DNA from: Phoronis australis
Lineage: Eukaryota > Animalia > Phoronida
Length of the DNA stretch: 64,000 bases
NCBI GenBank assembly: GCA_002633005.1
Contig: NMRA01000050.1
Coordinates: 451,353 to 515,352 of the forward strand
Reading direction: 5' to 3'
Shown piece after piece: positions 1-63,171 of this stretch (position 1 is its first letter; the number at the start of each line of letters is the position of its first letter). The notes beneath the pieces are model-generated. The model saw only the letters and a program-made list of their open reading frames with translations. It made no database searches and was not told the DNA's origin. The position numbers and the translations under genes were made by a program.

Positions 1-1940
1 ATCAGCAGAATTGAGGAATTTCAAGTAGTGCAAATAGTAAATGACTGCCTTGAACCATGTCGAGTGCTGAGTAACGATCAACGATCATGTACAAATAATA
101 ACGATTGCTCTGAGAAATCTGAATAGATGCATGAGGCGCATGTTGTGAATTGCCCCAACTTCTTATCTTAAAATGAAGAGTTAGTTTGATTGCAGAAACC
201 ATCAAGCACGATGTTATCTATTAAAAATGTTCTTCTCTTGGTTTTCATTTGAATAAATCAAAACGAAAAAAAAAATTATCGCACTTGAGATTTAGCTGTC
301 CAGGACACTACATTTGGGTGTTTCCAATATCGAAAAGGGGTTGCTTAGAGACCGCACCCTGTTGACGTCATTTGGATGTTTAAACGCTGGATTAAAACAT
401 AACGGTTTTCTTGTGAACATCGGTTTCAACTTTCGAGTTTCTTGAACAATCTAAAATAATTTTTTATCAAAAAATCCAAACATTTCGTGATAGATATGCA
501 AACATAGACTGTCCGGTCCGTTTTGTAATACGGAAAACTACGTCGTGTGGTCAACGGGTGAAGATCTTTCAGTGCTATGATGCTTCAACTAATGAAACGT
601 GGGGAGTGAGATTTCAAAGAACGATGTTGAGTTATTTTCCGTGTTTGAGAATCTAAACTTGGGATGGGCACAAAACGACTTTTAAGAATTAAAGATGTTC
701 ACAGTTAACAGAACATGGCAATAGTCTCGTTCTCGGTCATATCTAGTCGCGTCGTGAATAATCTGTTTATTCGGAAAGATATAGCACTTGTATTATCTTA
801 TCTTTTCGTTTCTATTGAGATCATCACTACGCATATAAAACATATTCAGGGAAGACCCAAGACACTCTGACACACGAAACGATGCAATAAGGCGTCATCA
901 CACCTGGTTTTAGTGAGACTTGAGGTTTTTTGAAAACACTTGACATTTGAGTGCGCGTTACATTATCATGGGCTTTCACTTGCAAAAAACCTGCTAAGAA
1001 TATAAATCTTTAGTATTTTTTTATTTAGAAGTCTATATTTTCTTCAAAGCATTCCATGTAAAATTAACCAAATTGATATATTCCCCGTAAGTGGGTATTT
1101 TCACGTTTACTATTGGTAAACACTCGAGATATAATGTACAAATAAAGGATGGTATGACATCTGTTGGCTTATCTCTTTACATCGTGTTCTTATCAAGAAT
1201 TATATTTTTGTATTTATGATTGTTGATTAAGTTCTAAGATTTCGTTTGTATAAAGAATTACACGTTCTCGTTCTCGTGTATTGGACATCCCATGGCTGCG
1301 TTGTGCAATTTTGTGCGGAAATCTATGAAATACGTGTAAAATCTGTTAAAAAATAAAATCTTTCGCTGAATCTATTGTCAATTGCTAAACCCCACTGTTT
1401 ACTACTAAACAAGTACACGATCGTTTATCTATCGTCCTCGGGATAAATTAAGTTCATTATCTTTTCTCGTTTGAAAGGTCCTTCGATAACAAAATACAAT
1501 AAATCTTTTATTTATGGCTTTAGTATTTTAGTTTAGTCAATTTTTCAAAAGGACATGTTGACTTTTTAGAACAAAAATCAACTATTAATGGGTCTAATCT
1601 GAAATGTTATGACTTGTGATCTAACGTGTCAAATTGCATTTGTCTGGTTTTTCAAAAGGGTTCGTCGATGTTTTGAGTTTGCTTTGGAGCCCGCCTGAAA
1701 AATGGACTTATAATTCAGTAATTTTAAGCTGCGTGTTTGTCTTTTCGGCGTTTAAATGTGGAGATTTAACTCTGACCCCTGATCAATGAATTGACAAATT
1801 GAATTGAATACATTTTACATTTTATCTTGTTTTTGATTCGATCAGATGATGATATGTGAACGCAACATTCGATCCAGTACTACGAAAGAATAATTGCTTT
1901 TGTTTACAAAACCAACCTTCAAATTATGAATGTGTAAAGA

Positions 1941-2003
1941 GGCGGCAATTGTGGCCTAGTCGGTTAGCATTCGTTTCCTTTACTCGGGAGTTCGAGACCC
2001 TCT
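1941..2003 (+). mobile_element. tRNA-derived SINE head / degenerate tRNA-like sequence
   Basis: Pol III A-box-like TGGCCTAGTCGG (1952) and B-box-like GTTCGAGACC (1990); spacing too short and no acceptor stem for an intact tRNA. Confidence 0.4.
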
Positions 2004-2093
2004 GGAGCACACTGTTAGAACCTAAAATCAGGACTCCAGCTCCGCAGCTCGGTTCTAAATATGTATATTAATAAAACATAAAAACGTTTCCAG

Positions 2094-2129
2094 GCCATCA
2101 ATGCAATGGGCCCACGTCTGGTACAACTC
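2094..2129 (+). CDS. candidate 36-nt micro-exon (HQCNGPTSGTT)
   Basis: tttccag acceptor, gtaatt donor, phase 1-1, compatible with exon at 3078; no domain support. Confidence 0.3.
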
Positions 2130-3077
2130 GTAATTATATTTATGCTAATGTGTATACAGTGTGTCAATATTGCGATTGTTCGATACCTCTTCATTAAATC
2201 ATTGCTTTGTAAATATCTCTCAAAGACAAAATTTAAGCCCTTACGGCAATCAAATTCTACTTTTTGAATTAAAAAAAGGTTGAATCCAGTAGTTAGCAAA
2301 CCACGTGTAAGAAAATACTGGAGGAACTTTTCAGCAGCTAAGTAAGAGAATTCCTTATCATAATATATAGTAAGCTAAGACGATCAATGAAAACAATGCA
2401 AACAGCATTATCAGAAATAGCAACAGGTTATCCTTGCTTATCAAATTTTATAGACCCATACCTCGCTAGGAGAGCAACGCAGACATGTTAAAACTGGGGA
2501 TAATAGTTACTATGTATGTTTGGCGTAAACTCCTAGCATCACGAGCAATAACTAAAGTTTAAATTGGAAAAGGGGTTTGATATTTAATAAAATTTGTCGT
2601 GGGTGGTTTTAATGAATACAAATTAAAGGATTATTGTTTATTAAATGCTCACTCTGGAATGGTTTGCACGCGTCTTGTCTTGATTGATTATCGGACATAA
2701 AAAGTAGCCTTCGGTTTAACGTTGCTCTTTAGTCTACGAAGCGATTGATCATACACGATGATTGACACTAAAATTACTCTAAACCACTTGCTTTTTCAAA
2801 ACTTTCAGTTTGTAATGTTTCAGCTGTCCATTTTGCATCCCCCTAGCCCAATTCAAAATGAAAACAAATATAAGGCTGTTTTGCGTGATCATGGAATAAT
2901 GGACCTACATTGATCCGGAAACGAAAACGTAGATGTAAAATGAGCTCGACGATTTCCGGTACTTTCATGGCACAGTCGGGACATGTATTCATTATGAAAC
3001 CAAAACCAATAGAAATGTGTCTCGGCGACTTCACAATCTCTGTATGATTTAAGCTATTCTCCATCTTTCTTTTTTAG

Positions 3078-3153
3078 CTGTCAACGGGCTTTGCAAACCG
3101 CGACAGGCACCTAAAAACGGTGTCATAGATTGCTACGAAGACGGACTGTACCT
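3078..3153 (+). CDS. exon 1: Sushi 1 N-half ([24 protein letters not shown])
   Basis: tttttag / gtgagt; phase 1-2; C-x-P-x-x-x-P-x-NG Sushi motif. Confidence 0.85.
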
Positions 3154-6100
3154 GTGAGTTTAACAAAATCAGAAATTTTGTTCTTAAAATCCTTTCCATA
3201 GACCTGTGGTAAGGCTACTCATTTGCAATTCGTTTCACTCTTCTATAATCAGCTTTCTTCTCTTCAAAGGACGTAATTCACATTTTATCGTATTTACTAA
3301 AGCCTATTCATGATCTTAATTGGCCGACTTATAATTAATTACATTAGTCTCTGATGTCATAAGCCGAACTTTTTCCAGAGAGCATTTTAACGCTTTGGTC
3401 GCTTTTACAGATGCCCACTGTGTTAGTCTATCACTAGCCCGCATTTCATTAACTCTGCACTTAAGAAACACTACGCAATGTTCTCTGAGTGGAGTTCGGA
3501 TAGAGTAGGCTTTGCTTTCAACATAATCTTCTCAACCTTTTATGGTATGGTCGCGTGACAAATCTTGTACGCCGATGAAAGCAGTACATATTACGTAATA
3601 AAAGTGTGTAAAATACAGCAAGAGGAACGCCGATATAAATTTGTAATCAAAACCAAACATTTCGAGTGCAGAAAGATCAGTGCTCTGGCAAAACGATGGT
3701 TTCTTGTTAGAATTGGATAACGAGGTTCGTCTTGATATATTTCATACACTTCCATTCAGTTTGTATCGGTGGTACAGACTTATAACGGTTTTTGATTAAT
3801 ACGACGTGGCATTTTACTATCCCATTTTTGTTGACGGTCAAAGAATGCGCACTTTCGCTCCCTTTTTAATCCTCTTATTGAAAAAAAAAAAAACAATAGA
3901 AAACGAGAATCTCTACAAAGCCACTACATTGTCCACTCAAAACAACGACTAGAAACTGAAGTTTTTGAATATTAATTCACTAGCTCAGCATATGTTCCTC
4001 TGTCTAATGAATTCACTTTTGGTTGCATCCAGAACTTGCGAAGCCAGGTGTAAAAACGGGTACAGGTTCCCTACTGGTCAAGGGGAGATTATTGACGACT
4101 GCGACCAATACGACGGGACGTGGCTGGATAATATTCCCTTTCCGGAGTGTATATGTAAGCGTTCTAGTACGCCTAATTTGCATTCAATGACAAGAGCATG
4201 GAGTGTGTCGAAGGTTGACCAAGGCACCGGGTGTCCTATCCTGGTATCTGTCTTGCGATGAGCGAGCGTCAGTTATACATGTATCTTGACACGTTTCTCC
4301 TAGACATAAGCCATGGACGTACGCCCGGGACGTACGTCAATGAAGATGAGCCTCCATGTTCTTGTTGATGCTAATTTATGCAGAAAAAAAATACGTCTGC
4401 ATTATAAATGTATTTTCGACATTGCGTTTTTTAATTGAAAGCAAAATCTAAATCACACGTAGACATGCGCGCACCAGCCTAAAATATAGGGGGCTCGAAT
4501 TGTTCGATATGCGGACCTTTTACTGAAAAAAATCAAACGAGGACTAAAAAAAGGGGCCACTTGGTTCAGGCCTGCCAATCGTGCATCCGCGCCGAATTCT
4601 TTTGGACTTTGTGGACTTTTGTCTCATTTACTCGGCCGGACTTTTTGTTTCACTGAGGCGTTTTTGCCCAACATTAATTCGCCAAATTGGGGGGGGGGGG
4701 GNNNNNTCGTTCGAGTCTCCCGAGCTCCCCCCAACTGGGTTCGCCCATGGTAGATGCTATTGGCTACGGAGTTTAGTTTCGCAGAACGCACACTGTTTGC
4801 TTTCAACCAAAAAATGCAATTTCAGTAGGCCTATATGCCATAGTAACGTATTCTGACTAACACACTGTTTCATGTACATATAGGCGTTGTGAGGCTTCTT
4901 GTAAAGACGGCTTTAAGTTTCCAACAGGCCAGCTGTCTATTGTGGATGACTGCGACGATTATTCTGGGGAATGGCTCGACAACGTACCAATTCCTGACTG
5001 CATTTGTAAATATGAAATCATCCCTTCACTCCAGTCAAACCCTACGCCGGTCCCAGGTTTCGGTCCTGATTCAGTAAAATACCACGTAGATTATATTTTA
5101 CCCTTGATCACAAACCTTTAGTCAAGTAGATGAGGTCGTGGTTAGTTATCAATAGTGTCAGAATTATCAAATTTGATGGGTTATTGTGGTACAGTTTCCT
5201 GCCAGAATGAGTGTGGCCAAGAACGCAATTATTACAAAACGACCACAAGATGTCTCTGTGTTTCATAAAAATTGGTGGACGTGACTCGGCTGCGCTCTTA
5301 CTTTTGCAGTTTCGGGACACGTTTTTTGAATACGAGGACCAACAATAGCACGATAACAGTCTGGTATTAATTAAGCCCCACCTAAATTTCTTACTTTTCA
5401 ACTTTCGCTGTTTTGTTTTTCGCCGTGGTTCTGTGTTTCTTCTAAGTGCCAGTTAAATTCATTGATTTGCTGTCGATGTCCTGCATCGTCTTCGATGATT
5501 GTCTGAAAGTTAGTGGGCCAGTGTTGTTGCTTCCTGTTACTAGGGCAGTCTCGATCTGACTTGTCTTGTTCTGTTCTCGTTGTTAGCTACTGGGAAATGC
5601 CAGGAGCCAGGCGACCCCAAGAACGGCAAGGTCTCGTGTATAGCAGACCACTTGAAGACCGAGTGTACTGTTCGCTGCATTGATGGTGAGCCAGTTATCT
5701 TAGAGTTATTGATCACCTTTGCCTACCGTACTCAATTTTTCTTCTAGTGTGAAAGTTGTATAATGGTCCTAGATTCGATAGTAAAGCCATTTCCACTGAC
5801 AATATTTATTTTCATTATTCAGTGAAAGTTGTAGTTACGCAGTGGTTCTCAAATCGGGGACTTTTACATGTTGCCAGATTGTTTTTTTGTAAACAAACCT
5901 AAGGAAAAACGAGAATTGACTATGCTGGTGTGGTATGTATATCTAATAATGTAAACCTTTTTAGAACTGGTGTAAGGATTTTATCCTGCAATTGGTCAAG
6001 ACTTTTCCGTACTCAGACATATAAAACATCACAGTCCAAAGCAATTTAGCTGTGTAAATGCTTTCAACCTAAAGTTGATGCTAATCTTGAGAGGGATCAT

Positions 6101-9100
6101 GGGCATGACATCACTTCCTGTGAGTCATTGTAGGAGTGCTTATAATAGATTGCTGGAAAGATTAAGAAACTCAGCATATCCATAAATTGGCATTTATAGC
6201 TGAATGCATTACAGCGTTCTGTCATTCAGTAACTTTTCCAGACGTGAGGGGTGCTGAACGTGCGATAACACCTGGCTCTTTTGTTAACTGCCCATCTCAG
6301 TCTTTTGTCCCATGTGATAACAAGCAGGCCAATTATCTCCCAGGCTTCAAAGGAAACGTATGGTGGTTGCACGCTATTACAGAATGCGTATGAACACAGT
6401 CAAACCCAGTGCGTTGGTAATCCGTTTGGACAGAATAGATTGTCTTAAAATATGTTGTAGTTTGGCGATTTTGGTGATTCAAAAACGGAACATGATCAGC
6501 ATTTGAGGAATTTAGAAATGCTACTGGTTTAAGCTTAAATATGTTATAACTTAACTTTCATTTTTATCAGCCCAGCCCAGTCAGGCTAGATACGATCTGA
6601 TCGGTGATTAGAGCAATTATCGAACATAAGAGTGCAGGCCCTCCGACCCTAAATGCCAGAATGGAGTTAATAAGTCGTGTAAGATATTGCCTATGGGGGT
6701 AAACTTCCATACTCGTTGTTTGGCTATAGAATCGAACAAGTTGGGAGCAACGGGATGTCGCTGTCATGGATCTGAGCTTGGGTAATGCAAATTCGTGGGC
6801 AGGGTTTCATTGCCCGTTGAGCACATATTTGGGCCAATATAATGCTACTTTGGTCCAATCCAGTGGAATGGGTTTTGTACTTCTGCAACCCAGTCAGTGA
6901 TTCGCTATCATTTCAAAGTGTTGTTATCCCTTTGCTCTGCAGGCCATGAATTCGAGTCTCCACCGGCACCTAAGTACATATGTAATCACCGAGGGGAGTG
7001 GTCACCATCACCAAACATACCCGGTTGCAAACCCAATGTTGTCATCATCCCAACGCCGACGACGGCTTCACCAATTCCTACCACAATTGGAACACCAAGT
7101 GGGTGAACGTTCTCTTTGTTCTTTGATCCATTGTTATCAACATGCGGCTGTTGTTATGTAGAAACGCTGAGTAGACTTCAATTATTTTTTCAAGGTACCC
7201 AAACCTACCATTTCATGTAATGTTTAATTTCTCATAGATTTGTTTTGTCCAATCATGCAGTTTGTAACTTGAGTTTAATTAGTTTAATAATCTTTTCAGA
7301 CCTGATAAACCGAAACTTTCCCTTAACCTCAGCAGTGTGCTGTCATGTAACCTGTGTTTACTTTGTTGCATCTTTAGAGTGTGCAAATTTCGTAGAACTG
7401 TCTCTCATATTGACCTGTTACTCATCTGCCGACCAGCTCACCCAGTTGTCACGACGGAAGCCTGGTGCGCTGCCTGGGGTCAGGATCACTATCGTACATT
7501 CGACAGTAAAGTGTACGCATACCAAGGCCAGTGTACCTACCTTTTGGCCAAGGACTGTGACTACAGCACCTGGGCCATACATGTCATCAATGATATGAAG
7601 TGCAAGCCTGAAGCGCCATGCAAGAGGGAGATGGATATCTACTTCGGTGACATGAAACTGGAAATGAGAGTGAGAGGAAAGAGGGTCATAGCCAAACTTG
7701 CTGGCAAGGTAATATTGGACTATAATTTTTAGATATGGCTACAAAGATTAATAAAGTGAGGCGTCCTTTCTTTAGCTTTAATACAGAACAAGCGTGATAT
7801 TGATGAAATGTGAAGACTTGAGCAGTGAACATAAGTTTGCTTTGTCTTTGATTTTGATGAATTATCTAATGATAGCTGTGCTGTACTTCAGATGTACATA
7901 TATGTATAGCACCTCCAGAACAGTTAAGTATAAAGACGGGTTATAAGTACTGTACTACGACATTGAAGAGAGGATCTAAAGTTTTAAGAACCTTTTGCAT
8001 AGTTGTGTCCATATTAAGCTTTAAGCAAGCTCTGTTGAAGGACACTTGTGTCCGCATTCTTTATTTATGTTAGATGCAAATCTGGTCCAAGTTTACAACA
8101 TAATACATAATATGCATCAGGACTCAACTGCACATATGCTTATGCTGGAGTGACATCTTCAGGACTCAATTGCACATATGCTGGAGTGACATCTTCAGGA
8201 CTCAACTGTACATATGCTGGAGTGACATCTAAATAGTTTGAGAGCAGAACGAGTTTCCTCATGAGAGCGCTTGTGTGCTAAGGATCTTATGTGACTTATC
8301 TGAATGCATGCATTTCTATGGGAAGGTCCTTAGCTTCACTTGCAACACCTGGAGAATTTCATGGTTGGCTATTGCATCTATCATGGGTGAGGTCTTAGCT
8401 GTAATGTCTGGAGTCATCCTGGAGCAACTCTCTCACTATATACCTACATCAGATTAAATGTTTATGCGTGTGTTTCTCTTGTAGGAGATAGAGGTCCCTA
8501 GTGTCAACTCTGGTGTCATTCTGGAGCAGGTCTCCCAATATATTTACATCAGGTCAAACTTGGGCTTCAAGGTCAAGTGGGACATGAAGGAATCCATCTA
8601 TGTTGAGGTATGCTCATCACACCCGTGGGAAAGCATGAAGCTGGGCAGGGCAATGGGTACTCTAATTTTACGCGTGATCACTCTTCTTGAGATGTGTTCA
8701 TTCAGTCACCCATTAATTCCACTCCTTGACAATCAGAAAATGTGCAGTTTGATGATCGAATGGTATACCAAGTAATTATGTGCTAGTTTATTCAAATAGT
8801 GTATCTGATATTGACGTTGAAAACATTTAATATTAAAAGACACTTGATGTATAAGTGATGTGTCGTTTACACTACATGTCATAGTTCATAAATTTTTGGT
8901 TGCCCGGTTGGAGATAATTTGGGGATGGGTCTTCCACCAAGTGACTATGAGTAGAAAACCTATGGTCTGCTAGGGGTCGATAATTTGTTCTTGTAAGTTA
9001 ACACACTTTAGAATTGGTTTCCTAGGTAACATCCTCCATGAAGAACAGGACTTGTGGTCTCTGTGGTCGCTATGACGACAACGCAGCCAATGACTTTGAA

Positions 9101-15100: not shown

Positions 15101-18100
15101 TATTCCTTAACCATTCTACAGGAATTCCAATGTTAGTGTAACGTGGTTTGTTCAGCACGTAAATTCCAGTAAATAAAAACACTGAGTAAAAACCCGGCCA
15201 GATTTTCTCATGTCATTGTTTTCCAGATTGCCATGACGTTGTGGACGTTGAATCGTTCTACCAAGACTGTCTGTTTGACGTCTGTGACTGTTCTGCAAAT
15301 CTGAAAGAGTGTATGTGTGACTCCTTTGCCGCCTACTCAGATGAGTGTGTTCGCAAGGGGATCAGAATCCCGTGGCGTAACTCTGTCAAACTTTGTGGTA
15401 AGGCAACTGTTCCGTTTTTTCACAAGTTTTCTATGATTGGTGTGTTCATGGTATCAGTAATGGCGTGGACATAATTTGTAGTTTTATTGTAGCAATAGTA
15501 AACAATCAAGGCTTGGAATTTTCTGCGGAAACGCTGATTTACGCTTTTTTCTCTTATTCCCTCTGCGCATTTTTGTTATATTCCACAAAAAATCGGATTT
15601 GACCTGTAAGTGTAGCAAGTAAATGAGGAATACATTACCTGGTGATGTTTTGAAATAAGAAGAAAATGTGTCTCATTTTCGGTTTCTTTCTAAGTAACTA
15701 TTTTTAACATTTTGTTTTTACTTCACCATGGACTCACATTTTATGCAATACCTATTAAACTACACAATCCTCTCTTTTCGGCATAAGCAACATATATGGT
15801 CACATCGGATTCCTCTCCTCTGTTGCAGGCCTCACCTGCCCTGGTGGCCAGATATACCAAACCTGTGGCAGCTCATGCAAGCGCACATGCCGTGCCATCG
15901 CTGAGAACCCCACGTGTGCAGACAGCTGCGTAGAGGGCTGCAACTGCCCCCAGGGTTACTCTCTTAACACGAACGGCGAGTGCATTGCTCAGAAGGACTG
16001 TCCATGTATCTTTGATGGTCGTGAATACCCCAGCGGGTTCTCTGCCAAGAAGGGAAATGAAGTCTGGTAACTTGGTTCTTTGAGTTCTTGGATTATTTGT
16101 GGCTAGTAATTCTATGATCAAAAATTCTAGGTTTGATGACGGTGTGTGATGTAATTTGTCCTTACTTGCAGCTTTCATCTTACATATATCACACTCAGGA
16201 GGTATTCCTCATCACGTGATTCTGATGTCCTTTTTTCATGATTGTCTCATTGCCAAAACGCTTGATGCACTTCAGTTCTTTGTCTCTTTCCACAGCCGAT
16301 GTCGCGGTGCCAAGTGGGTGTGCACTCCAGGGGGTGATCCGTCTGACCCCACAACCCCACTGTGTCCTGCCAACATGGAGTACGCTGACTGTGTAACCAC
16401 CTGTCCAACTACCTGTACCAACATGCACTCACCTCCCACCTGTTCTACACCTGCAAAAGTAAGCATTGCGTCTGAAACAGTTGTATCTAATTATACATTA
16501 ATAATGTCAAGGTAGTCTATGCCTGCTAACTGTCTTAAAAAACCAGATGAGTGCAAAATAGTGTCTTTGTGTATTAAACATCTTTTACTACTGAATGCCT
16601 GTGGTAGATAAGCAATACGTTAGTATTTTCACTTCTGTTTTGTCATTAGGTAAATTGTAAATAAACCTTTTGCTATGATAATAAAAACAAGGGAGATGAT
16701 TCCAATTCTATGACTGCATATGGGGAAAATGACTAAATAGTATAAAGTTGGCTGTTAGCATTCTTGTTGCAACTTCACTTTTACTGTGTAATTGTTGAAG
16801 GTCGATTATTCTTGCGTTGACTTTGATATATTTTACCAACAAAAACGCCTTGGTTGACAAAGCTGTCAAAAGTCTCTTGGGAAGTGAAGCTTGTTCATTT
16901 CATGACATGGTCTCTTGAGTCTTCTACAGGTTAATTGATAATCTCTTCTCTGCAGGACTGCAAAGCTGGTTGCCAGTGTAAGGTGGGTTATGTCCTCGAT
17001 GGCACTAATTGTGTGAAGGCTGATTCCTGCCCGTGTCACCACGGTGGACGGTCATACTATGAGGGGGACTCTTTCAAGAGGGAGTGTAATAAATGGTATG
17101 TACACTTACACTATCCCTCACCTTCTTATTTATTTTGGGCACATATTTAAAGGCGTGTTCTTTCAATTAATGCTTAGGCCTTTTAGATGCTTATTAGTAC
17201 ACGGATATGCTGCAGATTTTATGTTGTAGATTTTGGACAAATTTTAGTGAATGCTGGACTGTAGGAAATAGGAGCAGGGGCAACATGACACTCAATAATT
17301 TACAGGTGTGAGGGCGAAAACTTGTTGGGACTAGTGTAGTTGTATATAGAGATTTGTCTGACATTTGGGCAAAAATTATAAGAAAAAGGCACATCAAAGC
17401 ATGAATAAGAGAGATAACATTTTCACTGTACTGGGCTCCAATAGGGTCGCTTTTGTCTGGGAGGCATTTAATGTCTTTGCATTATTGAAAAGGGCCTGGG
17501 ATGCAGAATTTCCAGTTCAGATTTATTCAAGTCAGGGTATCTGTTAGAGAGTGCATTTTTCCTCTAGGGGGGGGTCTCTCTGACAAGGGATATTGTGATA
17601 AAAATTGTACATTTTTCCATGTTGTGGAATTGTGTATGACTGACAGATAGTTGTTTCATGAAAACCCTTTGTTTGTCATATCTAGCATAGGAGATGTTCC
17701 CAACTAAGCCCAAGGTGAAACTTTATTCTGTATCTTGGTTATTTAATTTTATTTACAGCACGTGTAAGAGCCGACACTGGGAGTGCGAAAACAAAGAATG
17801 CGCGGGTACATGCACAGTATTCGGCGACTCTCATTACAAAACGTTTGATGGCAAACTGTACGACTTCCAGGGTAACTGTGACTACGTTTTAGCTCGTAGC
17901 AAGCCTGGTGCTAAAGACGAGTTCCTCATCACGGCTGAAAACATTCCTTGCGGTACATCTGGCGTAACCTGCACTAAGTCTATCGAGTTCTCCGTGGGAG
18001 CGCCAGGTTGGTAAATCAATGGGGTTGTGTTTTTATACAGTAACTCTTCCCAAGTGTTTTATGCAGGCTTGAATAAGTTCAAAATTAATTGTAGATTGGC

Positions 18101-21100: not shown

Positions 21101-24100
21101 AAATCATGGAAATTTGTACCGTCTTAAAAACAATTTGTAATAGAATTTTGAGGAGCAGTGCATAAAGCATAATCTGAAAGTTTCATGAAACTGGTCGGAC
21201 CTTTCTGAGATGATATTCGGAATTAAGCCAACTATGCACATTTTTCTAGGCCACTGCATAGTCTTAGCCCACATGATTGAATGGTCCTGTCGCATATGCT
21301 TAGTAGTCATCAATCATTCGTCAGTCACTTGCTACATCTTCAGGTGTGTGTGGAAGGCTGCACTGTGGATGACTGCCCTGTAGGCAAGGTGTTCCAGGAC
21401 CTGATCAAACCACTCAAGTGCATCCCTGAGGCTAACTGTGAAGAAAAGGAGTGTGTGATCGGTGGCAAGACGTACAAGAGTGGGGAGCAGATAACTGACC
21501 CCAGCATCTGTAACCAGTGCCAGATGTGGTCAGTTGCACTTTTGATATTACTGTAACCAGTGCCAGATGTGGTCATTTGCACATTTGATATTCAATGTCT
21601 CTTCCCACTTACTGTCAAGCCACCTTGGAACACAAAAAACAAGTTTTGATTTAGACCATGTATTTAATTGGCCGCAAATTGTTTCTTAGTTGAATTGTTG
21701 GTGATTTCAGGGCTTGAACTGACAGTTTGTGTTGCTTGTGATCATGTCCAAGTTGGCTTGTCACTGTGGCTCATTGTATTAGCCAAGCATTCTCTTAAGG
21801 GAAAATGAACTATGAGTTCTTTGCAAACCCATAAATCTCTTCTCATTTGAATAATGGACAAGTTGAGACCACTTTTTGTAGCAGTTAATGATCAAAAGTT
21901 TGCTTCTTTAAAAGAACCCAAGTTTTTAGCCGATTTAACGATACATTTCAGCCGCATTGGATAGAATTTTTAAAATCATTTTTATGAAAGTTATCTGGTC
22001 AGCACAGAGTCTTACTTTCTTTGAGGACCTTTAACACATTCTTACCACACTCCATCCCTTTCATGCACTCATGTTGAGGCTGAGTTCTTTGAGGCAAGAG
22101 ACAGTAAATTATTGCAGTATATTGATAGTCTGTCAGCCAACACAGGATTTGACTTGAGACCTCACATGTAAGAGTTCGCAGTCCTATACTACCCTTTTAA
22201 AAATGGCGGAAAATGGTTCTTCACCTCTTTACGTTAGTTCAAAAACCCTGTCGTGATGCATTATAGGATAAAATTATGTGCTGAGCACAAATGTGATTTA
22301 TGGATATGGACATTCATGGTTTGTTTTATTTATTAGTGATTTGATGTTTGCAGTCTCTTTGAATCACCAAGTGACCATCATGATATTGTGAACTATTTGC
22401 TGACTGCAGTGTAACTGACTGACACTTGATACCTGGTAAAGTGTCTCTGTCATCCAATCAGTGCCATGCTGACTGCCATCCAATCGCAGCCATGGTGACA
22501 GTTGATACTCAGTTTTGGTGTACTTCTAGCTACTGCCAGAAAGGCAATGTGACGAAGAATGGAGATATATGCACGCCCAGTTTGTCTACACCCAAGACAC
22601 CAGGGCTTACAACTACAACAGCACCCATTCAGACCAAGACACCTATTATAACACCAACACCGTCACCATCACCAAAGATTACAACCCCTCGTGTAATTAC
22701 AATACTGTGAGTAATCTGTGTATTTCTTTTGTTTTTTTTTTGTTGCCACTTGTAAATTCTTAGGTTTGTACTTGATATAATTTATTGTATGACCTATCAA
22801 TGTTAACTTTGATAATATTAAATATAAAGATTCACCAAAAGGGGTCTTTATTTAATATTATCATCATTTAAATGGAAACCAGGAATATACAGTCACAATG
22901 TTAACTATAGCCATTGCACAATATCTTGTAAATTGGCGATTGCTGATATGTTATTCTTTTCATGCTGCGTTTAATTTCCATGGCTCCGTTGTCATAATAC
23001 TTTTTAAAGTATGCTTATGAGATTTTTGTCCTCAAACACAGAAAGTTTCTGTACACATTAACTAGTCCACAGTGTAGCATGCATTATTAAATGTGACATC
23101 ATCTTACGAGACAAGTCCTGTTTTGGAGAAATCAACAATGTAAGTTATCTTGAGAGAGTCAAAGCAGTGATGCAAGAGAAAGAGATTAGTGCTCTTTATT
23201 TATGACTGCACAATTGAATAAATGATATTTTAAACAGAAATGGGATTTCAAGAAACCCAGACCTTGATTTACCCCAGTCTTCGTTTCATGTTGACTTCCA
23301 TTACTCTGTGTTCCCATTCAGTTGTGAAAAGACGGGCTGGACTCCTTACATGGACTCTTTTGTGCCTTCCAAGTTGAGGAGCGGTGACCTTGAGACATAC
23401 AAAAACCTCCGTGCTAAATATGACTTCTGTGGTTATGAACAGGTTTGTCCAATCAGGTGTATACACGATAGTGTTAGGGCAGCCACATCAGTCTATAGAA
23501 GAGTTACATCAGATCTATACCTGCTGGAGTTAGACCTGAAGTATGCAGGATAATGGATAAATTTTAAAACAAATCGCAGATGCATCCTTAAAATGTGAAT
23601 CTTAACTTCCCTTTTGATGTTAGTTTTAAATTCTAAGGCAGAAAGAATATTTTTGTGTTACCGTCTGTGAGAGACAATTTTTGTTCTCATAGACAATATG
23701 TTTGGAGGACACTTGCATCGCATTTATCACAATAACATGATGAAATATGTAGCGTTTGACTTGTTTATTTAATTCCATTCTATAAATACATGTTAGTCAC
23801 AATTAGTAATGAGTTTCTAAAACTGCTCTGAGGTGGTGGTGTTTTATAACTATTAATAAAATCTCTTGGTCTATTTACACCGACCTTATAAATATACAAG
23901 AGGTCGGTGTAAACAGACCGAGAGATTTTACTAATAGTTACCACAATTAGTAAATCTCCCAATCAGTCACAATGTTATTTGTGTCTCTGTTGATAATTTT
24001 GAGGAAATTAATTCCATGTTTTACTCATTGTGGGTACAACTACGTTGCTCTTTGCAGGTCACTGCCATTGAATGCCGCGCCGTTGGTTATAACACAATGG

Positions 24101-27100
24101 CCAACTACGCTGGGCAGAACATCACGTGTGACATTAAGAATGGTCTCATCTGTCTCCACGAAAGACAGGTGTCAGGCGAGTGCTACAACTATGAAGTGCG
24201 GTTCTTCTGTAACTGCGAAGGTTTGTAGTTTCTTTGTGTTGAGCTGATGTGCTGTAGTACCACTGAATGTTTGAGTAAAGTGTTCGCTTACCAGAGTGAC
24301 TTTTTGTGTATTATATGCAATAGATAACATGTGTATTATATTGTTTTGGAAGTTCAGCTTGAAGTAAGCTAGTACATTTTGATTGCAAAAACAACTTACA
24401 TATACGACCCATTTGTATCTAATTAGTAGCAAGTCTCAATGAGTATATGCACGGAATTATAGAAGAAGACTTTACTTTTGATTAAAAAGTGAAAAATGGT
24501 AAAATCTGCAAAGTTTCTGTAAACTCTGCAAAAATGGGTTTGCTGAAATATTATTCCACAGTGTAGTGTAAAACTGCATAGAATGAAGTTACAAAGATGA
24601 TGAGATGATGACTGTGCTGATGTGGATAATGAAGGAGGAACATTCTATGCTCATTTATTGCTTGTATGTGCATTTAGAGTTTACTATATTGATCATTCAA
24701 ATACTAGCAGGCATTCACCTCTCTGTTCCTTTAACATCCTCTCTCAACCTTCTAGAAGTGACCCCAACGCCATCGGTGTCACCTACGCCATCGGTGTCAC
24801 CATCGGCCAAGACCACTGTCTCACCTACTCCCTCACCCACTAGCACCAGTCCCAAGACGCCGTCAGTGTCACTTACTCCAGAGACAGCATCACCAACTCC
24901 AGGCTCATCACCGACACCATCTGTCTCTCCAACAACTGGGTCAACAGTAACACCAACACCAAGTGAGGGCACCCCTTCGCCAACCCCAGGCACCACTCAA
25001 AAGAAGACAGTTTCCCCTACCACAGGAACACACGAGACTCCAACCATTGCACCCACTCCTAAGCAGACCCTCACCCCGAATCCAACAACCAAGAGACCAA
25101 CATCAACGGGCTCTGTTTCTACGGTGACACCAACTCCTGAACAGACGTCAAAACCTCCTTGTGAGTACAAAACTGACTGGCTGAGTATACACACACCGGA
25201 TGATAGTGCTGAATACGAGTTTGTATACTTACTGCGTGACAATGGTATCAAGTTGTGTTCTGATGAATATATCCAGGACATTGAGTGCCGTGAGAAAGAT
25301 TCGGCCATTCCAGCACAGTTCAGTGACTGGAAAGTACAATGTAGCCGCCAGAGGCAAGGCATTGTCTGCTTGAATGAAGAGAACCCTGGTCGGAAGTGTC
25401 CCGATTTCGAGATCCGTGTTGTCTGTGGCTGCGACAAGTATGTCAAACCAACAGAGGGCAGCACGCCAGAACCCACCGCACCCGTTACGACAAAGGCACC
25501 AACCACGGTGACTGGAGGAACACCCACCCCAAGTACGTCAAAGGAAGTGACCCCCACACCATCCCCCACTTCATCAACTGGAAAGACTCCAAGCATAACA
25601 GAAACCAAGGAACCCAGCACTACACCACCAACGCCTCCTACCAAGCCAGGTAAGTACTACCAGCGGTGATCATGCATAACATTAAAGCAACAAAATATCT
25701 TGACTCTTGGTGCAATTGACAAAATTGTTACTATTGTCCTTTTTCATTGTCTGCAGGCAAATATTGATTAAGTGTGTTAAGTGTGCAGTGCACACACACC
25801 CAAACACAGACACATGCAAACGCATATACACACACTCACGCACTCACACACTCTAGCAATAGTCTGCGTTTAAGTCTTTGTAAAATCCATTTAATTTACT
25901 TTTGTAAATAAACTTGCATTGTATTTTATTTCATTATTCATGTACTTTTTCTGTTGTTATCTATATTGTTCTTCTTAATTGTAAATATCTGTTTAATTTA
26001 TTTTTACTTGGTGGTCAGCTACTAGCGGCCAGCGCCTTTGCTGGCCACTCAGTCACATAACAGCGTATGTTTTTATATGATTTAAAAAATGAAAATTTCT
26101 CTCACGCGAAAAAAATTGCATTCAGTGTCATGATCATGGTTCGAGTGAAATGCCTCTCATTTAGTTGCCAGCACAAGCGTAAGGTGGTTGACAGTCACCT
26201 GTTTGGTTACAGGTGTTCCAACGGCGATGTGCCTGCGCAGTGGCTGGACCAAGTGGCTGAGTAAGGACACACCACTAGATGGCGTTGATGATGAGAACAT
26301 CATGGAACTGAGGAAGGACCTTATCTTCTGCAAGGATGACCAAATCAAATTCACTCAGGTACCAGGCTCAGTACTTTTACCTGTCATGAATGGGGATAGA
26401 ACCAATCAAGCTAACAACATTAAATGATGCGTTTCAGACGCATGTCTACCACTTTGTACCCTAGTGTCAATTTTAGTTGTTTGCATTTGCCTCATTCATT
26501 GTTCATTGGTTGATTTTTGTGAATTTTAACAAATAGGTTTCTATTAAGGAGGTGATGATAAGCGTCTATTTTCGTATGGATTTGATGTATTTTGTCCATC
26601 ACTTAGTGGTAATTTTTATTTCTCTGGTTGCGTTTTTTTTCCTGATAAGAAAATGCTGATTTGTGAATGGATTCAACAATTGTGAGGCTTGCTGGTGACA
26701 ATTGTTGTCTTTTTTGCTTCCTCGGCTGTGTCCTTATTCCTTATTCCTTTTGATGGATCTTTGGGAAATTTTGCAGGAGTTGGTTTTATAAATATGATTA
26801 CAACTACCAGCACCTTTAGGATGAATATGACTACCACAGTGACTGTACCTACCTTCTAGTGACAATTTTAGTTTTTACGATCTTGAGAGATATTTGACAG
26901 TTTTTATTGAATTGTGGTAAACAAGTTTCTATCATGATGGCGTAGCATGTATCCATTTTGGGATTTGGCATATTCTGCGCCACCTTGTGTCCATTTTGGG
27001 ATGGATTTGGCATATTCTGCGCCACCTTGTGTTCATTTTGGGATGGATTTGGCATATTCTGCACCACCTTGTGTCCATTTTTGACACTTAATACCCTTCA

Positions 27101-36100: not shown

Positions 36101-39100
36101 GATTACCGCTTCGAAGCCCAGCGTGCTCGTCTCTTTATTGAGAGTGATGGTGAGCTCGCCGGAGCATGGGTTCCAAGGTTTGTAGACGTTAAGACATAAA
36201 ATTTATGTTTTTGTATAGATTTCCTTTCATCTTGTTTGCACACTCCTCGTTTTCTATTTGCTTAACGTTTTTAAGTTGTTAAAAACCTCTAAATAGGAAC
36301 TTTGTGTACTTATCAATGGAGTGTGATTGTCATGAAATGAACTATTGTATTGTATGGCCACAGGTTCCAAAATGACAAGCAGTGGATCCAGGTGGACTTT
36401 AAGCAGCCTGTGGAGATATCTGGAATCAAAACACAGGGTCGATCAGATGCAGCAGAATGGGTGACTAGGTATACCGTGTCCACAAGTATGGATGGAAAGA
36501 CTTTCACACCTTACCATGAGAATGATGTTATTAAGGTGCGTCTGTTACCTTGTTTGGACTTGTTTTACTTGGTGATCAGATTAACCTGGCAAGAAGTGTA
36601 CAGTTGCTTATTTAAACATTTTAGAATGTTTTATACACTGCTGTGTAAGGAAAATGTAAATGCACTGTGTACAAGGTAGGGGTGTAGTTCTCAGGATGAC
36701 AGTCTGCTTTATTGTACATTCAAATAAGACAAATGACAAACTTGTTTTATTTCTTTCTTCAGGTTTTCCATGCTAATGTCGACCAGAACACTATCAAGAC
36801 TAACTTTTTCACTCACGAGTTCAAAGCCAGGTTTGTGCGTTTACACCCGGTAACATGGGAGGGGCGGATTGCCCTGAGATTTAATGTGCTTGGTTGTAAC
36901 GAGATGACACCTGAGCCAACACCGCCGTCAACTCTTGAACCAACCTCAAGCTCAACCGCATCACCAAGCCCATCAACCAAACAGCCACCAGTGTCTACTG
37001 AGGTGCCACCAACACCTACAACTTCTGGGTCATCCAAGACAACGAATCTTATTCCAACAACTAGCTCTGCCAAGACACCCATAACTTCCCCACGTGTGCC
37101 AACATCGAGATTTACAAGCAAACCAACACCAAGTGAAGCAACCCCAACTCCTGGCACATCAGGGTCTCCAAGTATTGGACCAACAACTGGCTCTAGCAAG
37201 ACACCAACACCATCAGAGCGTGTGCCAACATCAGGGCTTACAAGTGAACCAACGCCTAGTAATCCAACACCAACTCCCGGTTCATCAGAGTCTCCAAGCA
37301 TTGGACCAACTACTGGTTCTAGCAAGACACCAACACCATCAGAGCGTGTGCCCTCATCAACTCCTGAGGTTGGATTGACACCAACAACAACAACAAAGTC
37401 ACCATTTAGTACGTCGCAGACTCCAAGCATTAGACCAACAACTGGCTCTAGCAAACCACCAACGCCATCGGAGCGTGTGCCTTCAACAACTCCAGGTGGT
37501 GGGCCTACACCAACTTCTGAAAAACCAACATCTAGAACATCACAGGGTCCAACAGTTGGGCCAACCACAGGCAGTACTAAACCACCAATGACCACCAGCT
37601 GTGTTTACTGGACGCCATGGGTCAGCAACAGAGAAAGCTCATCAATAGGTACATATTGGTGGACGTTTCAATGATTTTTCACACATTCATTCTTTTTAAA
37701 AGTACCCTACAATTGATCTAGTTGATGGGATTTTTAACTGTGAAACGGTGAGTAATTGAAGAAGGATCTCATTTGAAAAGTCATCATTTGTCAAGTTGTG
37801 ACACCCAAAAATTCATCTTCATCTTTTGTTTTAGGTTGCTGCATAATAGCACGCTCATGCCTAAGTTACTACTTCAGAGGACATCTCATTTCTGCAAGCT
37901 AACCTGACTTTATGTTGACATAATGCATTTTCCTTTAGGTGAAGCTGAGTTCATTTACATTATGAGGGAGTCCATTGACTTCTGCCAAGATGAAGATATT
38001 CTTAGCATGCAATGCCGTACAGTTGGCAGCCATGTCTACTTTAAGGACATGACTCAGAAGGGAATTATCTGTGATGTTAATCAACAACGGTTCACGTGCC
38101 CTGGCGAACTAGATGGCAAGTATATTTTCATGACTGAGATACTATTTTACCAAATGAAGGCATCATAACAGAGAGCTACAAATGGAGATAACTTTAATAT
38201 GTGTTGCATACTATTTTTCAATATTTAAAAATATTAATTCAAGACATGAGTCAAATAGTGCTCAATTTGGAAAAAATAGCTGCTGTCTGTGAATGACAGC
38301 AAGTGTTATTGTGTCAGTTTGGTTTGTGTTACAGGATTTACTCAGGACTGCCCAGATGTTGAAATCAGAGTTCAGTGTAACTGTGGTGTGATGACAATGG
38401 TTCCTCCAACTCCAACATCTTCTGAGACCCCTGAGCCTACATCGACGTCCACTGGTAAACCAACACTGTCTCCAACAGCTGGTTCCACACCAGAGCCAAC
38501 TACCTCTGAGAAGACTCCAAAACCAACAACTAAAGGAGTTAAGACACCAACATCGACGTCCACTGGTAAACCAACACTGTCTCCAACAGCTGGTTCCACA
38601 CCAGAGCCAACTACCTCTGAGAAGACTCCAAAACCAACAACTAAAGGAGTTAAGACACCAACATCGACATCCACTGGTAAACCAACACCATCTCCAACAG
38701 CTGGTTCCACACCAGAGCCAACATCTTCAAAGAAGACTCCAGAACCAACAACTACTAGTATCAATACACCAACATCAACGTACACTGGTAAACCAACACT
38801 GTCTCCAACAGCTGGTTCCACACCAGAGCCAACTACCTCTGAGAATACTCCAAAACCAACAACTAAAGGAGTTAAGACACCAACATCGACATCCACTGGT
38901 AAACCAACACCATCTCCAACAGCTAGTTCCACACCAGAGCCAACATCTTCAAAGAAGACTCCAGAACCAACAACTACTGGTATCAAGACACCAACGTCAA
39001 CATCCACTGGTAAACCAACACTGTCCCCAACAGCTGGTTCCACACCAGAACCAACTTCTTCAAAGGAGACTCCAGAACCAACAACTACTGGTATGAAGAC

Positions 39101-57100: not shown

Positions 57101-59402
57101 CTTTCACACTTTATCGACTTGATGGTGTATTTAGCCAAATATTTGCAAAATTGTTGATTTTAAATCTGTTTAAAAAAATAAAAGTATATATTTTCTGAAA
57201 CTAGAAAGGCCGTAGAGTTTGATTTTTAACTTTATACCAGTCTGCTTTTACGTGGATCACGTGACTGTGTTTATGGAAAATTTTAGCAAAAAAGAATCAG
57301 ATATATCCATATCACAACAACAGTATCAATAGCATGACCAAATTGTGTTTGATATGAAATGTCAAAACCATAGTTTTCTACATTTATCATTTCGTTGTTG
57401 TTTGATGCCTTTTTTGAGTGTTTTCATAAAAATCGTGAAAATCCATTTCTTTATCCCCTCATGCAAAAATGGAACAATTCCTGAAAGGATTTTGGAGAAC
57501 AGCGTAACAAATAAAGTATGCGACTGTACTTATGAGAGGTAATGGGTATATTAAAATAAACTTGTAAACAGTTATGCAGTAGGTGGACACTCAATGGTTA
57601 GCTTTGTACTCACAGCTGGGCCGTCTGGTGGCGTGAAACTTGTTATGTGGCTGTCCGTCTTATTCCCTATTAGCGATGCTCTTCAACAAGTGCTTAATCA
57701 TATATCCAATTTAATTTCAGTTCAGTCACTTACTAGAGCTCATTCATTTCCAGATTTTCAGTGGAAACACAATGACTTCTCATGACAAAGCAGTCACCAA
57801 CTACTTCAACCGACCAATTAACGCGCAGTTTATCCGCATTGTGCCAGTGGATTGGACCAATGGCATTGCTCTGCGATTTGAGATCAAGGGTTGTTTTGAA
57901 GGTAATGTTGACTTGTTATATGATTATCATATTGCTACCCCACCTGGTGGACAAAAGCTTATTAGGGCGTTGCACTTTAGAAAGTTAAGGGTAATGATCT
58001 GTACAGATGCATTATGTACATACTTTAAGTAACTCCATAATTCTTTAATTTGTTATAGTGAGTGTAACTATCACAGTAGTATTCATCTGGCCAGAAGCCA
58101 ATTACCCTATGCAGGCCTTTAATGAGCCAATTACCCTATGCAGGCCTTTAATGAGCCAATTACCCTATGCAGGCCTTTAATGAGCCAATTACCCTATGCA
58201 GGCCTTTAATGAGCCAATTACCCTATGCAGGCCTTTAATGAGCCAATTACCCTATGCAGGCCTTTAATGAGCCCATTACCCTATGCAGGCCTTTAATGAG
58301 CCATGGGTTATGAGTTGAAAGTTATTGGTTGTGTGTATGGTATGCAGTAGCATGAGTGTTCACATTAGTGAAAGTCATGACTGCCTCCCTGACTTATTGT
58401 TCAGGGGCCCGTTTCATGACACTTTGTTGGCATAAAATCTGGCTTATTTAAATGCGAAAGCAATTGTTGATCTTATCTTTAGCGCTTGACCTGCAGGTTG
58501 CCAGCTGCGACCTCAGATTTGTTTGGGAACTTGGGCAAATCTCAAGTCGTTACGCAGTTACAACTGCGAGTTTCAAAGTCAAAACAAAAATTCCGCCTAA
58601 ATTTTTTCCAAAATTTATGCTGATTTCCAAGCGTTAAAGGACATTTTTCCTAGATTCATTACCTTTGATTCACAATTGTTCCGTTTATTTTGTGAAATCG
58701 GCGCATTTGCTACCACAACAGTCTGCACACATCAAACTCGTGCTTAAGTTACTTCAGGAAGTAAACCGACAGAAGTCGGAATTGTTGGGTACATGTCGGG
58801 CAAGATCAGTGAAATAAGCACCACCAGTCTCTGCAATCGTCTGTGTCCTATGTTCGTTTGTCAGCGGGAGGAATTAAGTTAGTTAATGAATGCACATAAT
58901 GTATATTTACGGTGCAAATTTAGAGGCGCACAAGATACTGCGAACTGGGCACGTTACGACAGTACAACGTTTTTGGTTGGACGAATTTGATGACACTGCA
59001 TCGGCAATCTTGGATTTCATTTAGCGATGTCGGATTTTAAGTATTGACGACGACCTCAGATTTCGTTTGGTCACCTGGGATTTTTGCCAAATGTGACTTG
59101 GTGTTAAGCTAAGCATGGAGCGCTGTTTTAGTAACAATGTAGATTCCTATTTATTTGTAGTTGGCAAAAGCACAGTTAGTGTGGTCAACTATGAGAGAAC
59201 TCAGTACGCAACTTCAATCTTACTATTAGTTAAAGCCATAGATTGAAAAAGGATGTTTATGAAATTTAGTCTTCGGGCCTTTACCTGAATTTCGATGTTA
59301 ATTTGATAAATTTTTGGTTTCAACATTTGATTTTAAAGTCTCTTTTCATGAAACAGGTCCTAGATTAGAGGAAGGTGGCAACGCATCTCTGTTGTTGTGT
59401 GG

Positions 59403-59437
<35 letters not shown>

Positions 59438-62973: not shown

Positions 62974-63171
62974 TGATTGCAGTGCACTCTCACTGGCAAT
63001 AGTACTGTCTACTGTGTGACCATGATTGCAGTGCACTCTTACTGGCAATAGTACTGTCTACTGTGTGACCATGATTGCAGTGCACTCTCACTGGCAATAG
63101 TACTGTCTACTGTGTGACCATGATTGCAGTGCACTCTCACTGGCAATAGTACTGTCTACTGTGTGACCATG
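62974..63171. repeat. intronic minisatellite, 49-bp unit x4
   Basis: TGATTGCAGTGCACTCTCACTGGCAATAGTACTGTCTACTGTGTGACCA at 62974, 63023, 63072, 63121. Confidence 0.93.

What the first reader, a model, noticed from the sequence alone, without database searches (positions are those of the whole stretch)
4033..5005. Candidate mutually exclusive exon pair swapping half of a Sushi domain
Seen: exons 4033-4154 and 4884-5005 are both exactly 122 nt, both phase 2 in / phase 1 out, stop-free, with intact splice sites, and align without gaps ([40 protein letters not shown] vs [40 protein letters not shown]). They are strongly diverged at silent sites but conserved in protein. Only one N-half exon (3078-3153, phase 1-2) is visible. 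Including both would frameshift, and so would skipping both. The small N gap between them lies inside a TSD-flanked MITE, so it is unlikely to hide the missing N-half exon. Inference: old, selected mutually exclusive splicing giving two N-terminal specificities on a giant mucin.
Basis: partly seen in the sequence, partly recalled or inferred. Interest (0 to 1): 0.8.

Follow-up and report, generated by a model that had tools for sequence, protein, structure and literature searches.

The report
Twin half-Sushi exons in invertebrate mucin
A giant invertebrate mucin-like (hemocytin-type) gene carries two old, intact copies of the exon for the second half of a Sushi-like domain, of which only one at a time keeps the reading frame; the RNA examined splices in only the first copy, so the second is likely a rare or tissue-restricted alternative of a well-known kind of exon swap.

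Summary
The DNA observation holds. Exons A (4033-4154) and B (4884-5005) are both 122 nt, phase 2 to 1, stop-free and 26/40 identical in protein, but only 13/40 identical at third codon positions. Simulation excludes neutral decay of B since the duplication (0 of 32,000 runs). No second N-half exon, intact or decayed, is found between them, and the 5-N gap lies in a 286-bp MITE.

RNA supports only half of the claim. In the two runs that express the gene, E1>A (64+4 reads) and A>E3 (34+3) are seen. E1>B, B>E3 and A>B are not listed (under 3 reads per run). The thin coverage over B runs on into the flanking introns. B has a very weak donor, and a 9-bp stem covers its acceptor AG.

Best reading (0.62): a duplicated-exon mutually exclusive pair, kept exclusive by frame and nonsense-mediated decay, with A as default and B off in the samples read. 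Main rival (0.22): B was silenced recently. Different binding specificities are untested, and most of the 14 changes are conservative. No orthologue with both exons could be reached. This is a new member of a common class, of modest interest.

The parts
3078..3153 (+). E1: 76-nt exon, phase 1-2, N-half of the Sushi-like domain; spliced to an upstream exon outside the window
   Evidence: RNA joint 3153>4033 and loose ends at 3076; N-half profile 27.3 bits
4033..4154 (+). Exon A: 122 nt, phase 2-1, C-half of the Sushi-like domain; the copy used in RNA
   Evidence: Joints 64+4 reads in and 34+3 reads out; depth 63 in X1; family profile 56.1 bits
4884..5005 (+). Exon B: 122 nt, phase 2-1, intact paralogue of A; no splice junction seen; weak donor
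   Evidence: family profile 50.7 bits
4855..4861 (+). Branch-point-like GACTAAC upstream of B (putative branch A at 4860, 706 nt from A's donor)
   Evidence: Sequence; use as a branch point is inferred
4829..4885 (+). Predicted local stem: 4829-4837 is the exact complement of 4877-4885 and covers B's acceptor AG
   Evidence: 9 bp against at most 7 in 47 other acceptors and 1 of 600 random AGs with 9 or more; whole-window fold not unusual, z -0.51; noticed after the fact
4418..4823 (.). Long inverted repeat (arms 4418-4445 and 4796-4823) with the MITE inserted at its apex; old foldback element or RNA structure
   Evidence: Longest of 95 inverted pairs in 1-7400; z -3.8 without the MITE, but 3 of 354 windows of similar GC fold better
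4464..4749 (.). 286-bp MITE with GTAGA target-site duplication; holds the only N run (4702-4706) after a poly-G
   Evidence: reads of other copies on both strands at 4474-4552
5270..5363 (+). Minor non-coding exon (start approximate) spliced to E3; in-frame TAA three codons before its donor
   Evidence: Joint 5363>5587, 5+2 reads; depth 4.2 at 5270-5357 and 0.11 at 5182-5269 in X1
5587..5685 (+). E3: N-part of the second Sushi-like domain, phase 1-1
   Evidence: RNA joints; N-half profile 16.5 bits
6943..7098 (+). E4: C-part of the second Sushi-like domain and a Pro/Thr linker
   Evidence: Joints 5685>6943 (61+5 reads) and 7098>7437 (68+4)
7437..7708 (+). E5: start of the first VWD domain of the mucin/hemocytin-type host gene, which runs on through the window with C8, TIL, PTS, WxxW and F5/8C exons
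   Evidence: Pfam VWD E 6e-14; C8, TIL, Mucin2_WxxW twice and F5_F8_type_C all above cut-off; RNA joints

Best explanation
Exons A and B are old tandem duplicates of the exon for the C-terminal half of a Sushi-like domain near the front of a giant hemocytin-type gel-forming mucin; only one at a time keeps the frame, A is the copy spliced in the RNA examined, and B is likely a still-functional alternative used rarely or in a tissue or stage not sampled. Shown: E1 splices to A, and A splices over B directly to E3; joining both or neither gives an early stop; B was kept by selection for most of its history. Inferred: (1) A wins by default because B has a very weak donor and its acceptor AG is predicted to be folded into a 9-bp stem; (2) a splicing factor or a change in folding would switch B on and A off in some cells; (3) A+B and skip-both messages would be removed by nonsense-mediated decay, since steric (706 nt) and U2/U12 exclusion do not apply; (4) the B form would keep the fold and change about 14 residues, mainly at positions 17-18 and 25-29 of the exon, which may tune binding of this module.
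For: Equal length, phase and frame; both isoform models open. Neutral decay of B since duplication gave the observed pattern (27 or more third-position differences with 26 or more identical residues) in 0 of 32,000 simulations; two constrained copies gave it in up to 19%. A dead B stays intact with probability only 0.21 after 0.05 and 0.05 after 0.1 substitutions per site, while the best-fitting age is 1.2 to 3 per lineage (the indel rate of 0.1 is assumed). B fits a profile of 58 C-halves from 20 relatives nearly as well as A (50.7 against 56.1 bits) and keeps a branch-point consensus. A>E3 bridges B in 34+3 reads, and no A>B joint is listed. No N-half remnant between A and B. The one-copy product aligns over 232 columns to unnamed protein P0064, which has signal peptide, two Sushi-like modules and VWD; tick hemocytins P0040 and P0041 also have one such module, an EGF and a second module before VWD. 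Three quarters of human isoforms of this class are tissue-specific (PMC9741552, abstract passage), and validation of such exons had not saturated at 15 billion reads (PMC5740500, section 5).
Against: No junction into or out of B is listed in either expressing run: under 3 reads against 64 for E1>A in X1, a one-sided 95% upper limit of 4.6% (0 reads) to 9.2% (2 reads). Sense coverage over B (2.7) equals that in the intron behind it (3.2), and 4654-5181 sums to 6.1 read lengths, as expected from about three unspliced fragments (inferred from bin sums). B's donor lacks G+5 and any exon-side match and is outscored or equalled by 55 of 153 unused intronic GTs. A weak cryptic donor at 5363 is used with E3 (7 reads) while B's is not. 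No competing docking/selector pair was found. No orthologue with both exons was reached, and none of 16 same-cluster pairs of relatives swaps this C-half.
Confidence: 0.62

Rival explanations
1. B was a true alternative exon for a long time but has recently been silenced, by a donor mutation, by the MITE insertion upstream or both, and is now a young pseudo-exon that has not yet decayed.
For: No B junction in RNA. Donor weaker than 48 of 49 donors of the gene. A MITE lies 135 nt upstream of B. A dead B would still look intact with probability 0.74 at 0.01 and 0.54 at 0.02 substitutions per site.
Against: The time in which a dead exon looks intact is short (about 0.03 substitutions per site) against the pair's age. 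Only two expressing samples of one study were seen, one at about a tenth of the other's level, and 18-19% of each run was read. The branch-point consensus is kept.
Confidence: 0.22
2. B is the stranded second half of a former separate tandem domain (N1-A, N2-B) whose N-half exon was deleted recently, so its conservation reflects past use in a longer protein and not alternative use.
For: Relatives often carry runs of this module in tandem (P0001, P0002, P0005, P0020, P0039). B is not spliced.
Against: No trace of an N-half exon in 4155-4883 by profile, protein or DNA alignment (shuffle p 0.27 and 0.71). Losing N2 alone would frameshift the message unless B were already skipped efficiently. A two-module front end is also found in relatives.
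Confidence: 0.07
3. An N-half exon is hidden in the assembly gap at 4702-4706, and N2 with B forms an optional whole Sushi-like domain that is skipped in the samples read.
For: The gap is unbridged here and no DNA run was available to close it. N2 (76 nt) with B (122 nt) would keep the frame.
Against: The gap is 5 N after a poly-G inside an element of ordinary MITE size with matching target-site duplications. No loose-end row behind 4154 or before 4884 is among those shown, though 12 rows were hidden, and depth on B is at intron level.
Confidence: 0.05
4. B is used only in unproductive or regulatory transcripts, for instance A+B messages sent to decay or low-level transcription from the MITE through B to the 5363 donor, and serves to tune gene output.
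For: Sense, apparently unspliced reads from about 4710 to 5180 and a minor 5363>5587 joint exist.
Against: Such a role would not conserve B's protein sequence. No A>B joint is listed. The minor transcript has no in-frame ATG before the VWD exon.
Confidence: 0.04

Closest known systems
Homologous mutually exclusive exons / tandem duplicated exon substitutions (Hatje et al. 2017, PMC5740500, section 5 and passages read; PMC9741552, passages read; PMC7954323, passages read)
   Same: Neighbouring internal exons of equal length and frame with sequence similarity, core residues kept and mostly conservative changes; length not divisible by three, as in 60% of human clusters (PMC5740500).
   Different: One of the two bridging junctions required for validation (into or out of B) is missing, so by that paper's rules this is still a candidate. 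The enriched classes named there are channels, transmembrane and muscle proteins; this host is a secreted mucin-type gene.
FGFR IIIb/IIIc exons and the Dscam1 exon 4 and 6 arrays (recalled; no call)
   Same: Alternative duplicated exons supply half of one extracellular disulfide-bonded domain while the other half is constant.
   Different: There both forms are expressed and ligand or partner changes are proven. Here one form is unseen, no ligand is known, there are only two copies, and no docking/selector pairing was found.
Protostome hemolectin/hemocytin-type gel-forming mucin-like proteins (Lang et al. 2016, PMC4948705, passages read; tick hemocytin-like XP_077527874.1 = P0040, XP_075729139.1 = P0041; zonadhesin-like XP_064486185.1 = P0002)
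   Same: Three VWD-C8-TIL units, then PTS regions with WxxW (CysD) and F5/8 type C domains; the same Sushi-like modules before the first VWD.
   Different: No EGF module between the two Sushi-like modules here; very long PTS/WxxW region; annotated tick isoforms differ only by short indels or one larger insertion elsewhere, not by a half-domain swap.

Membership tests
Homologous mutually exclusive exon pair (criteria of PMC5740500) | Neighbouring internal exons, similar length, same frame, compatible splice sites, sequence similarity, no in-frame stop | tested here: met
   122/122 nt, phase 2-1, AG/GT, 26/40 aa, both models open
Homologous mutually exclusive exon pair (criteria of PMC5740500) | Junction reads from the first exon that bridge the second (A>E3) | tested here: met
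   34+3 reads, 4154>5587
Homologous mutually exclusive exon pair (criteria of PMC5740500) | Junction reads to the second exon that bridge the first (E1>B) | tested here: inconclusive
   Not listed (under 3 reads per run) against 64+4 for E1>A; only two expressing samples of one study, 18-19% of each run read, and joints of 1-2 reads are not shown. Not met in these samples.
Homologous mutually exclusive exon pair (criteria of PMC5740500) | No exon-joining reads, unless joining frameshifts | tested here: met
   4154>4884 not listed; joining would frameshift. Of little weight while B is unused.
Homologous mutually exclusive exon pair | Both copies under purifying selection | tested here: met
   For the pair's history as a whole: 0 of 32,000 neutral-B simulations fit; present-day selection on B not testable
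Homologous mutually exclusive exon pair | Pair conserved in related species | not testable with these tools
   No genome held; no close orthologue found
Steric or U2/U12 exclusion | Donor-to-branch-point distance under 50 nt, or incompatible intron classes | tested here: not met
   706 nt; all sites are GT-AG and neither donor has the U12 consensus (consensus recalled; sequence)
Docking-site/selector (Dscam-type) control | One docking sequence pairs competitively with selectors beside both exons | tested here: inconclusive
   5 region pairs tested; 4 no better than shuffles. Intron 1 (3419-3428) is a 10-nt complement of B's branch region (1 of 49 other acceptors reach 10), but it has no matching selector at A (-10.1 against a median -8.8 kcal/mol). 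No orthologues for covariation.
Sushi / CCP domain (PF00084) | Pfam gathering score | tested here: inconclusive
   Only single exons could be scanned: A 15.9 bits against 20.7, no match for B, E1, E3 or E4; Atlas neighbours of B are Sushi clusters at 0.87-0.89, a lead only; no solved structure matched
Gel-forming mucin-like / hemocytin-type protein (PMC4948705) | [quoted passage not shown] | tested here: met
   Pfam VWD, C8, TIL, Mucin2_WxxW and F5_F8_type_C above cut-off; three VWD-type stretches by tblastn; PTS repeats
Gel-forming mucin-like / hemocytin-type protein (PMC4948705) | Signal peptide and C-terminal VWD units or cystine knot | not testable with these tools
   The 5' exon lies outside the window; 56001-64000 was not read by eye and the C-terminal part was not identified

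The most novel reading that the evidence does not exclude
A secreted mucus/clotting polymer switches half of its front recognition module by regulated splicing: B is held shut by an RNA stem over its acceptor and is opened in one cell type or on immune challenge, giving two mucin versions that bind different partners. I found no such case for a mucin or a Sushi-like domain in the searches made.
Probability: 0.15. Interest if true: 0.55.

Novelty: new member of a known kind. Interest (0 to 1): 0.3.

Why it matters
If B is live, one giant mucin gene makes two versions of a conserved, unstudied module at its front end, which points to that module as a binding site worth studying and extends duplicated-exon switching to gel-forming mucins. 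The class itself is well known and common: hundreds of human cases (PMC5740500), and 12 similar unchecked notes in at least 8 genomes of this scan. If B is dead, it is a small example of an alternative exon caught just after silencing. An annotation pipeline using these RNA runs would miss B altogether.

Tried and rejected
No RNA holder was listed by the indexed search; three raw-read runs and one contig set came by species label. X3 and X4 show no coverage of E1, A, B or E3 and were left out of the second lay (2 of 4 runs). No whole genome is held. Orthologue searches: profile of A+B against 1.84 billion representatives gave 18 hits, all distant, one of them (P0018) an unrelated repeat; word-based searches with A+B and with the VWD exon found nothing (weak evidence, 2000-residue ceiling); a search with tick P0002 gave 55 long proteins, mostly vertebrate SCO-spondins, 5 arthropod hemocytin-like and one unnamed. 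The metagenome scan gave one 44% match (L001), which I did not open. No structure match (best E 0.079); no fold was predicted because the domain spans two exons. A decayed N-half exon in any of the introns 3154-5586: none. A decayed EGF exon between B and E3, suspected by eye near 5185-5260: rejected, 64 of 300 shuffles score as well. Homology of the introns flanking A and B: none (shuffle p 0.16 and 0.70). Competing RNA pairings: not supported. Special folding of the 71 nt around B's acceptor: z -0.51, so the 9-bp stem remains a lead. Isoform swaps in relatives: 0 of 16 pairs for the C-half. The splice-site scores rest on 49 hand-placed donors and 49 acceptors of this gene, only the first few confirmed by RNA and about three probably misplaced; the last count of that script (branch points at other acceptors) did not run. 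The simulation is a simple codon model with assumed rates. Earlier-finding look-ups by relatives, by nearness and by the first word set were empty. No supplements were read.

Full report
Setting. The window is AT-rich animal DNA (35-45% GC) filled by one long + strand gene. Pfam finds VWD, C8, TIL, Mucin2_WxxW and F5/8 type C in single exons, all above the curated cut-offs. Tick protein P0002 maps three VWD-type units by tblastn, and Pro/Thr/Ser tandem repeats fill the later exons. This is the layout that Lang et al. 2016 give for hemolectin-like, mucin-like proteins of protostomes with CysD and F5/8 domains (PMC4948705, passages read). No whole genome is held. I did not identify the species.

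The observation. A (4033-4154) and B (4884-5005) are each 122 nt, flanked by AG and GT, phase 2 in and 1 out. They align without gaps at 75/122 nt and 26/40 aa, with 29, 32 and 13 of 40 identities at the three codon positions. With E1 (3078-3153), E3 (5587-5685), E4 (6943-7098) and E5 (7437-7708), either exon gives an open frame of 241 aa; both together stop at aa 124 and neither at aa 56. E1 plus either exon has the cysteine, glycine and tryptophan pattern of a Sushi-like module found in tick and spider hemocytin-like proteins and in bivalve proteins. Pfam Sushi reaches only 15.9 bits on A, below its cut-off of 20.7, so the name is 'Sushi-like'. A profile of 38 N-halves finds E1 (27.3 bits) and E3 (16.5) but nothing between A and B (best -1.3), and direct alignments of E1 to that intron are at shuffle level. 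The one N run of the window (4702-4706) follows a poly-G in a 286-bp element with a GTAGA target-site duplication, whose left part draws reads of other copies on both strands.

Selection. If B had drifted since the duplication while A was constrained, the combination of 27 or more third-position differences and 26 or more identical residues arose in 0 of 32,000 simulations (two ancestors, four ages). With both copies constrained it arose in up to 19%, best at 1.2 to 3 substitutions per site per lineage and dN/dS 0.05 to 0.1. Against a profile of 58 C-halves from 20 relatives, A scores 56.1 and B 50.7 bits. So B encoded protein for most of its history. The same model says that a freshly dead B stays intact with probability 0.74, 0.54, 0.21 and 0.05 after 0.01, 0.02, 0.05 and 0.1 substitutions per site, so a recent loss is not excluded.

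RNA. Three raw-read runs of one study and one small contig set were available; 18-19% of each raw run was read. X1 expresses the gene well, X2 about tenfold less, and X3 and X4 show nothing on these exons. In the focused lay of X1 and X2 on 3070-5709, all five listed joints are shown: 3153>4033 (64+4 reads), 4154>5587 (34+3), 5363>5587 (5+2) and two repeat-derived ones. 3153>4884, 5005>5587 and 4154>4884 are not listed, which means under 3 reads in each run. Depth in X1 is 63 on A, 2.7 on B and 3.2 in the intron just behind B; X2 has none on B. The sense coverage from 4654 to 5181 adds up to 6.1 read lengths, which fits about three unspliced fragments; this is inferred from bin sums, as single reads were not shown. 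B inclusion in X1 is below 4.6% if there are no hidden reads and below 9.2% if there are two (one-sided 95%). The reads also show that the exon before E1 lies outside the window (60+6 loose ends), and they correct E4's end to 7098 and E5's start to 7437.

Why A wins. Scored with matrices from 49 hand-placed donors and acceptors of this gene, A's donor (6.0 bits) lies above 15 of 49 and B's (0.7) above 1 of 49; 55 of 153 unused GTs nearby score as well as B's. Both acceptors are weak (2.3 and 2.9; above 4 of 49), as often seen at alternative exons (general knowledge). B keeps a good branch-point consensus. B's acceptor is covered by a perfect 9-bp stem (4829-4837 with 4877-4885); none of 47 other acceptors exceeds 7 and 1 of 600 random AGs reaches 9. 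I noticed this after looking at a fold, and the 71-nt region as a whole is not unusually stable (z -0.51), so it is a lead. Just upstream lies a long inverted repeat with the MITE at its apex; similar hairpins occur in other introns of the gene, so it may be an old foldback element. A search for competing docking and selector sites found only a 10-nt complement of B's branch region in intron 1, with no partner at A. Steric exclusion is ruled out by the 706-nt distance. Frame plus nonsense-mediated decay remains as the safeguard; decay itself was not tested.

Relatives. No close orthologue was reached. Distant relatives cut both ways. Several carry tandem runs of the module, which keeps the orphan reading alive. 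But unnamed protein P0064 has signal peptide, two Sushi-like modules and VWD, and aligns to the one-copy product over 232 columns, and tick P0040 and P0041 have one module, an EGF and a second module. None of 16 same-cluster pairs swaps this C-half. One pair, Mytilus californianus lactadherin-like X1 and X2, differs by seven substitutions confined to the signal peptide and N-half of the same kind of module, ending about where E1 ends.

Weighing. A dead exon looks intact for only about 0.03 substitutions per site against an age above 1, which favours a live exon strongly beforehand. The missing junctions, the weak donor and the nearby insertion shift the odds back. My estimate is 0.62 for a live but rare or tissue-restricted alternative, 0.22 for recent silencing, 0.07 for an orphan of a lost N-half, 0.05 for an N-half hidden in the gap and 0.04 for a purely regulatory role. 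These are judgements, not computed values. Tissue restriction is usual in this class: three quarters of human isoforms (PMC9741552, passages). By the rules of Hatje et al. (PMC5740500, section 5 read whole and passages) the pair meets the sequence criteria, one bridging junction and the absence of joining reads, but lacks the second bridging junction, so it is a candidate. Variable residues of such exons tend to be exposed and near functional sites (PMC7954323, passages), which is the only basis for 'two specificities'; here 14 residues differ, mostly conservatively, and net charge is -5 against -6 (counted).

Novelty. Searches for mutually exclusive exons with Sushi domain (2 papers hold both terms, 1 listed, on human isoform structures; listing only), for hemocytin, sushi, mucin and alternative splicing (59 hold three terms, 20 listed, none on this by title or abstract start), for mutually exclusive, exon duplication, mucin and lophotrochozoan (0) and for gel-forming mucins, hemolectin, VWD and sushi (6 listed) showed no description of this event. 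PMC5740500 mentions a cluster of four such exons in CD55, a Sushi-domain protein (recalled), but the passage does not place them in a Sushi domain. The library lacks most subscription papers. The class is well known, and unchecked notes of this scan list many like it, two in this genome. Verdict: real, new member of a known kind, alternative use unproven; interest 0.3.

Noticed in passing
window 5270-5363 (start approximate): Minor exon spliced to E3 (5+2 reads). No AG fits its apparent start, so it may be an internal transcription start; it has an in-frame stop just before the donor and no in-frame ATG follows until the VWD exon.
   Followed up: partly
window 4418-4823: Long intronic hairpin with a younger MITE inserted at its apex; the target-site duplication lies in the upper stem.
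   Followed up: partly
window 3419-3428 and 4855-4864: Exact 10-nt complement between intron 1 and B's branch-point region; 1 of 49 other acceptors has a match that long.
   Followed up: partly
window 6207-6770: Intronic repeat with heavy RNA coverage on both strands from diverged copies in all four runs; not identified.
   Followed up: no
window about 23800-23990, 17520-17650, 26880-27010: Other strong intronic hairpins (-49.6, -40.5 and -35.5 kcal/mol in 127-nt windows); the first looks like a palindromic MITE.
   Followed up: no
window 5006-5269: One antisense read pair in X2; also a little antisense coverage in 1945-2268 in X1 and X2.
   Followed up: no
window 36900-37500 with 55170-55760; 38439-39132 with 47710-49265: PTS exons share the same 126-nt and 111-nt repeat units at distant places, pointing to internal block duplications in the mucin region.
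   Followed up: no
window 53052-53240: An F5/8C exon ends in three copies of a 22-nt unit (53168-53232) that appear to span its donor site, giving several possible donors.
   Followed up: no
P0027 / P0029 (Mytilus californianus lactadherin-like X1, X2): The two annotated isoforms differ by seven substitutions only in the signal peptide and N-half of the same kind of Sushi-like module, as if duplicated first exons swap the other half; could be an assembly duplicate.
   Followed up: partly
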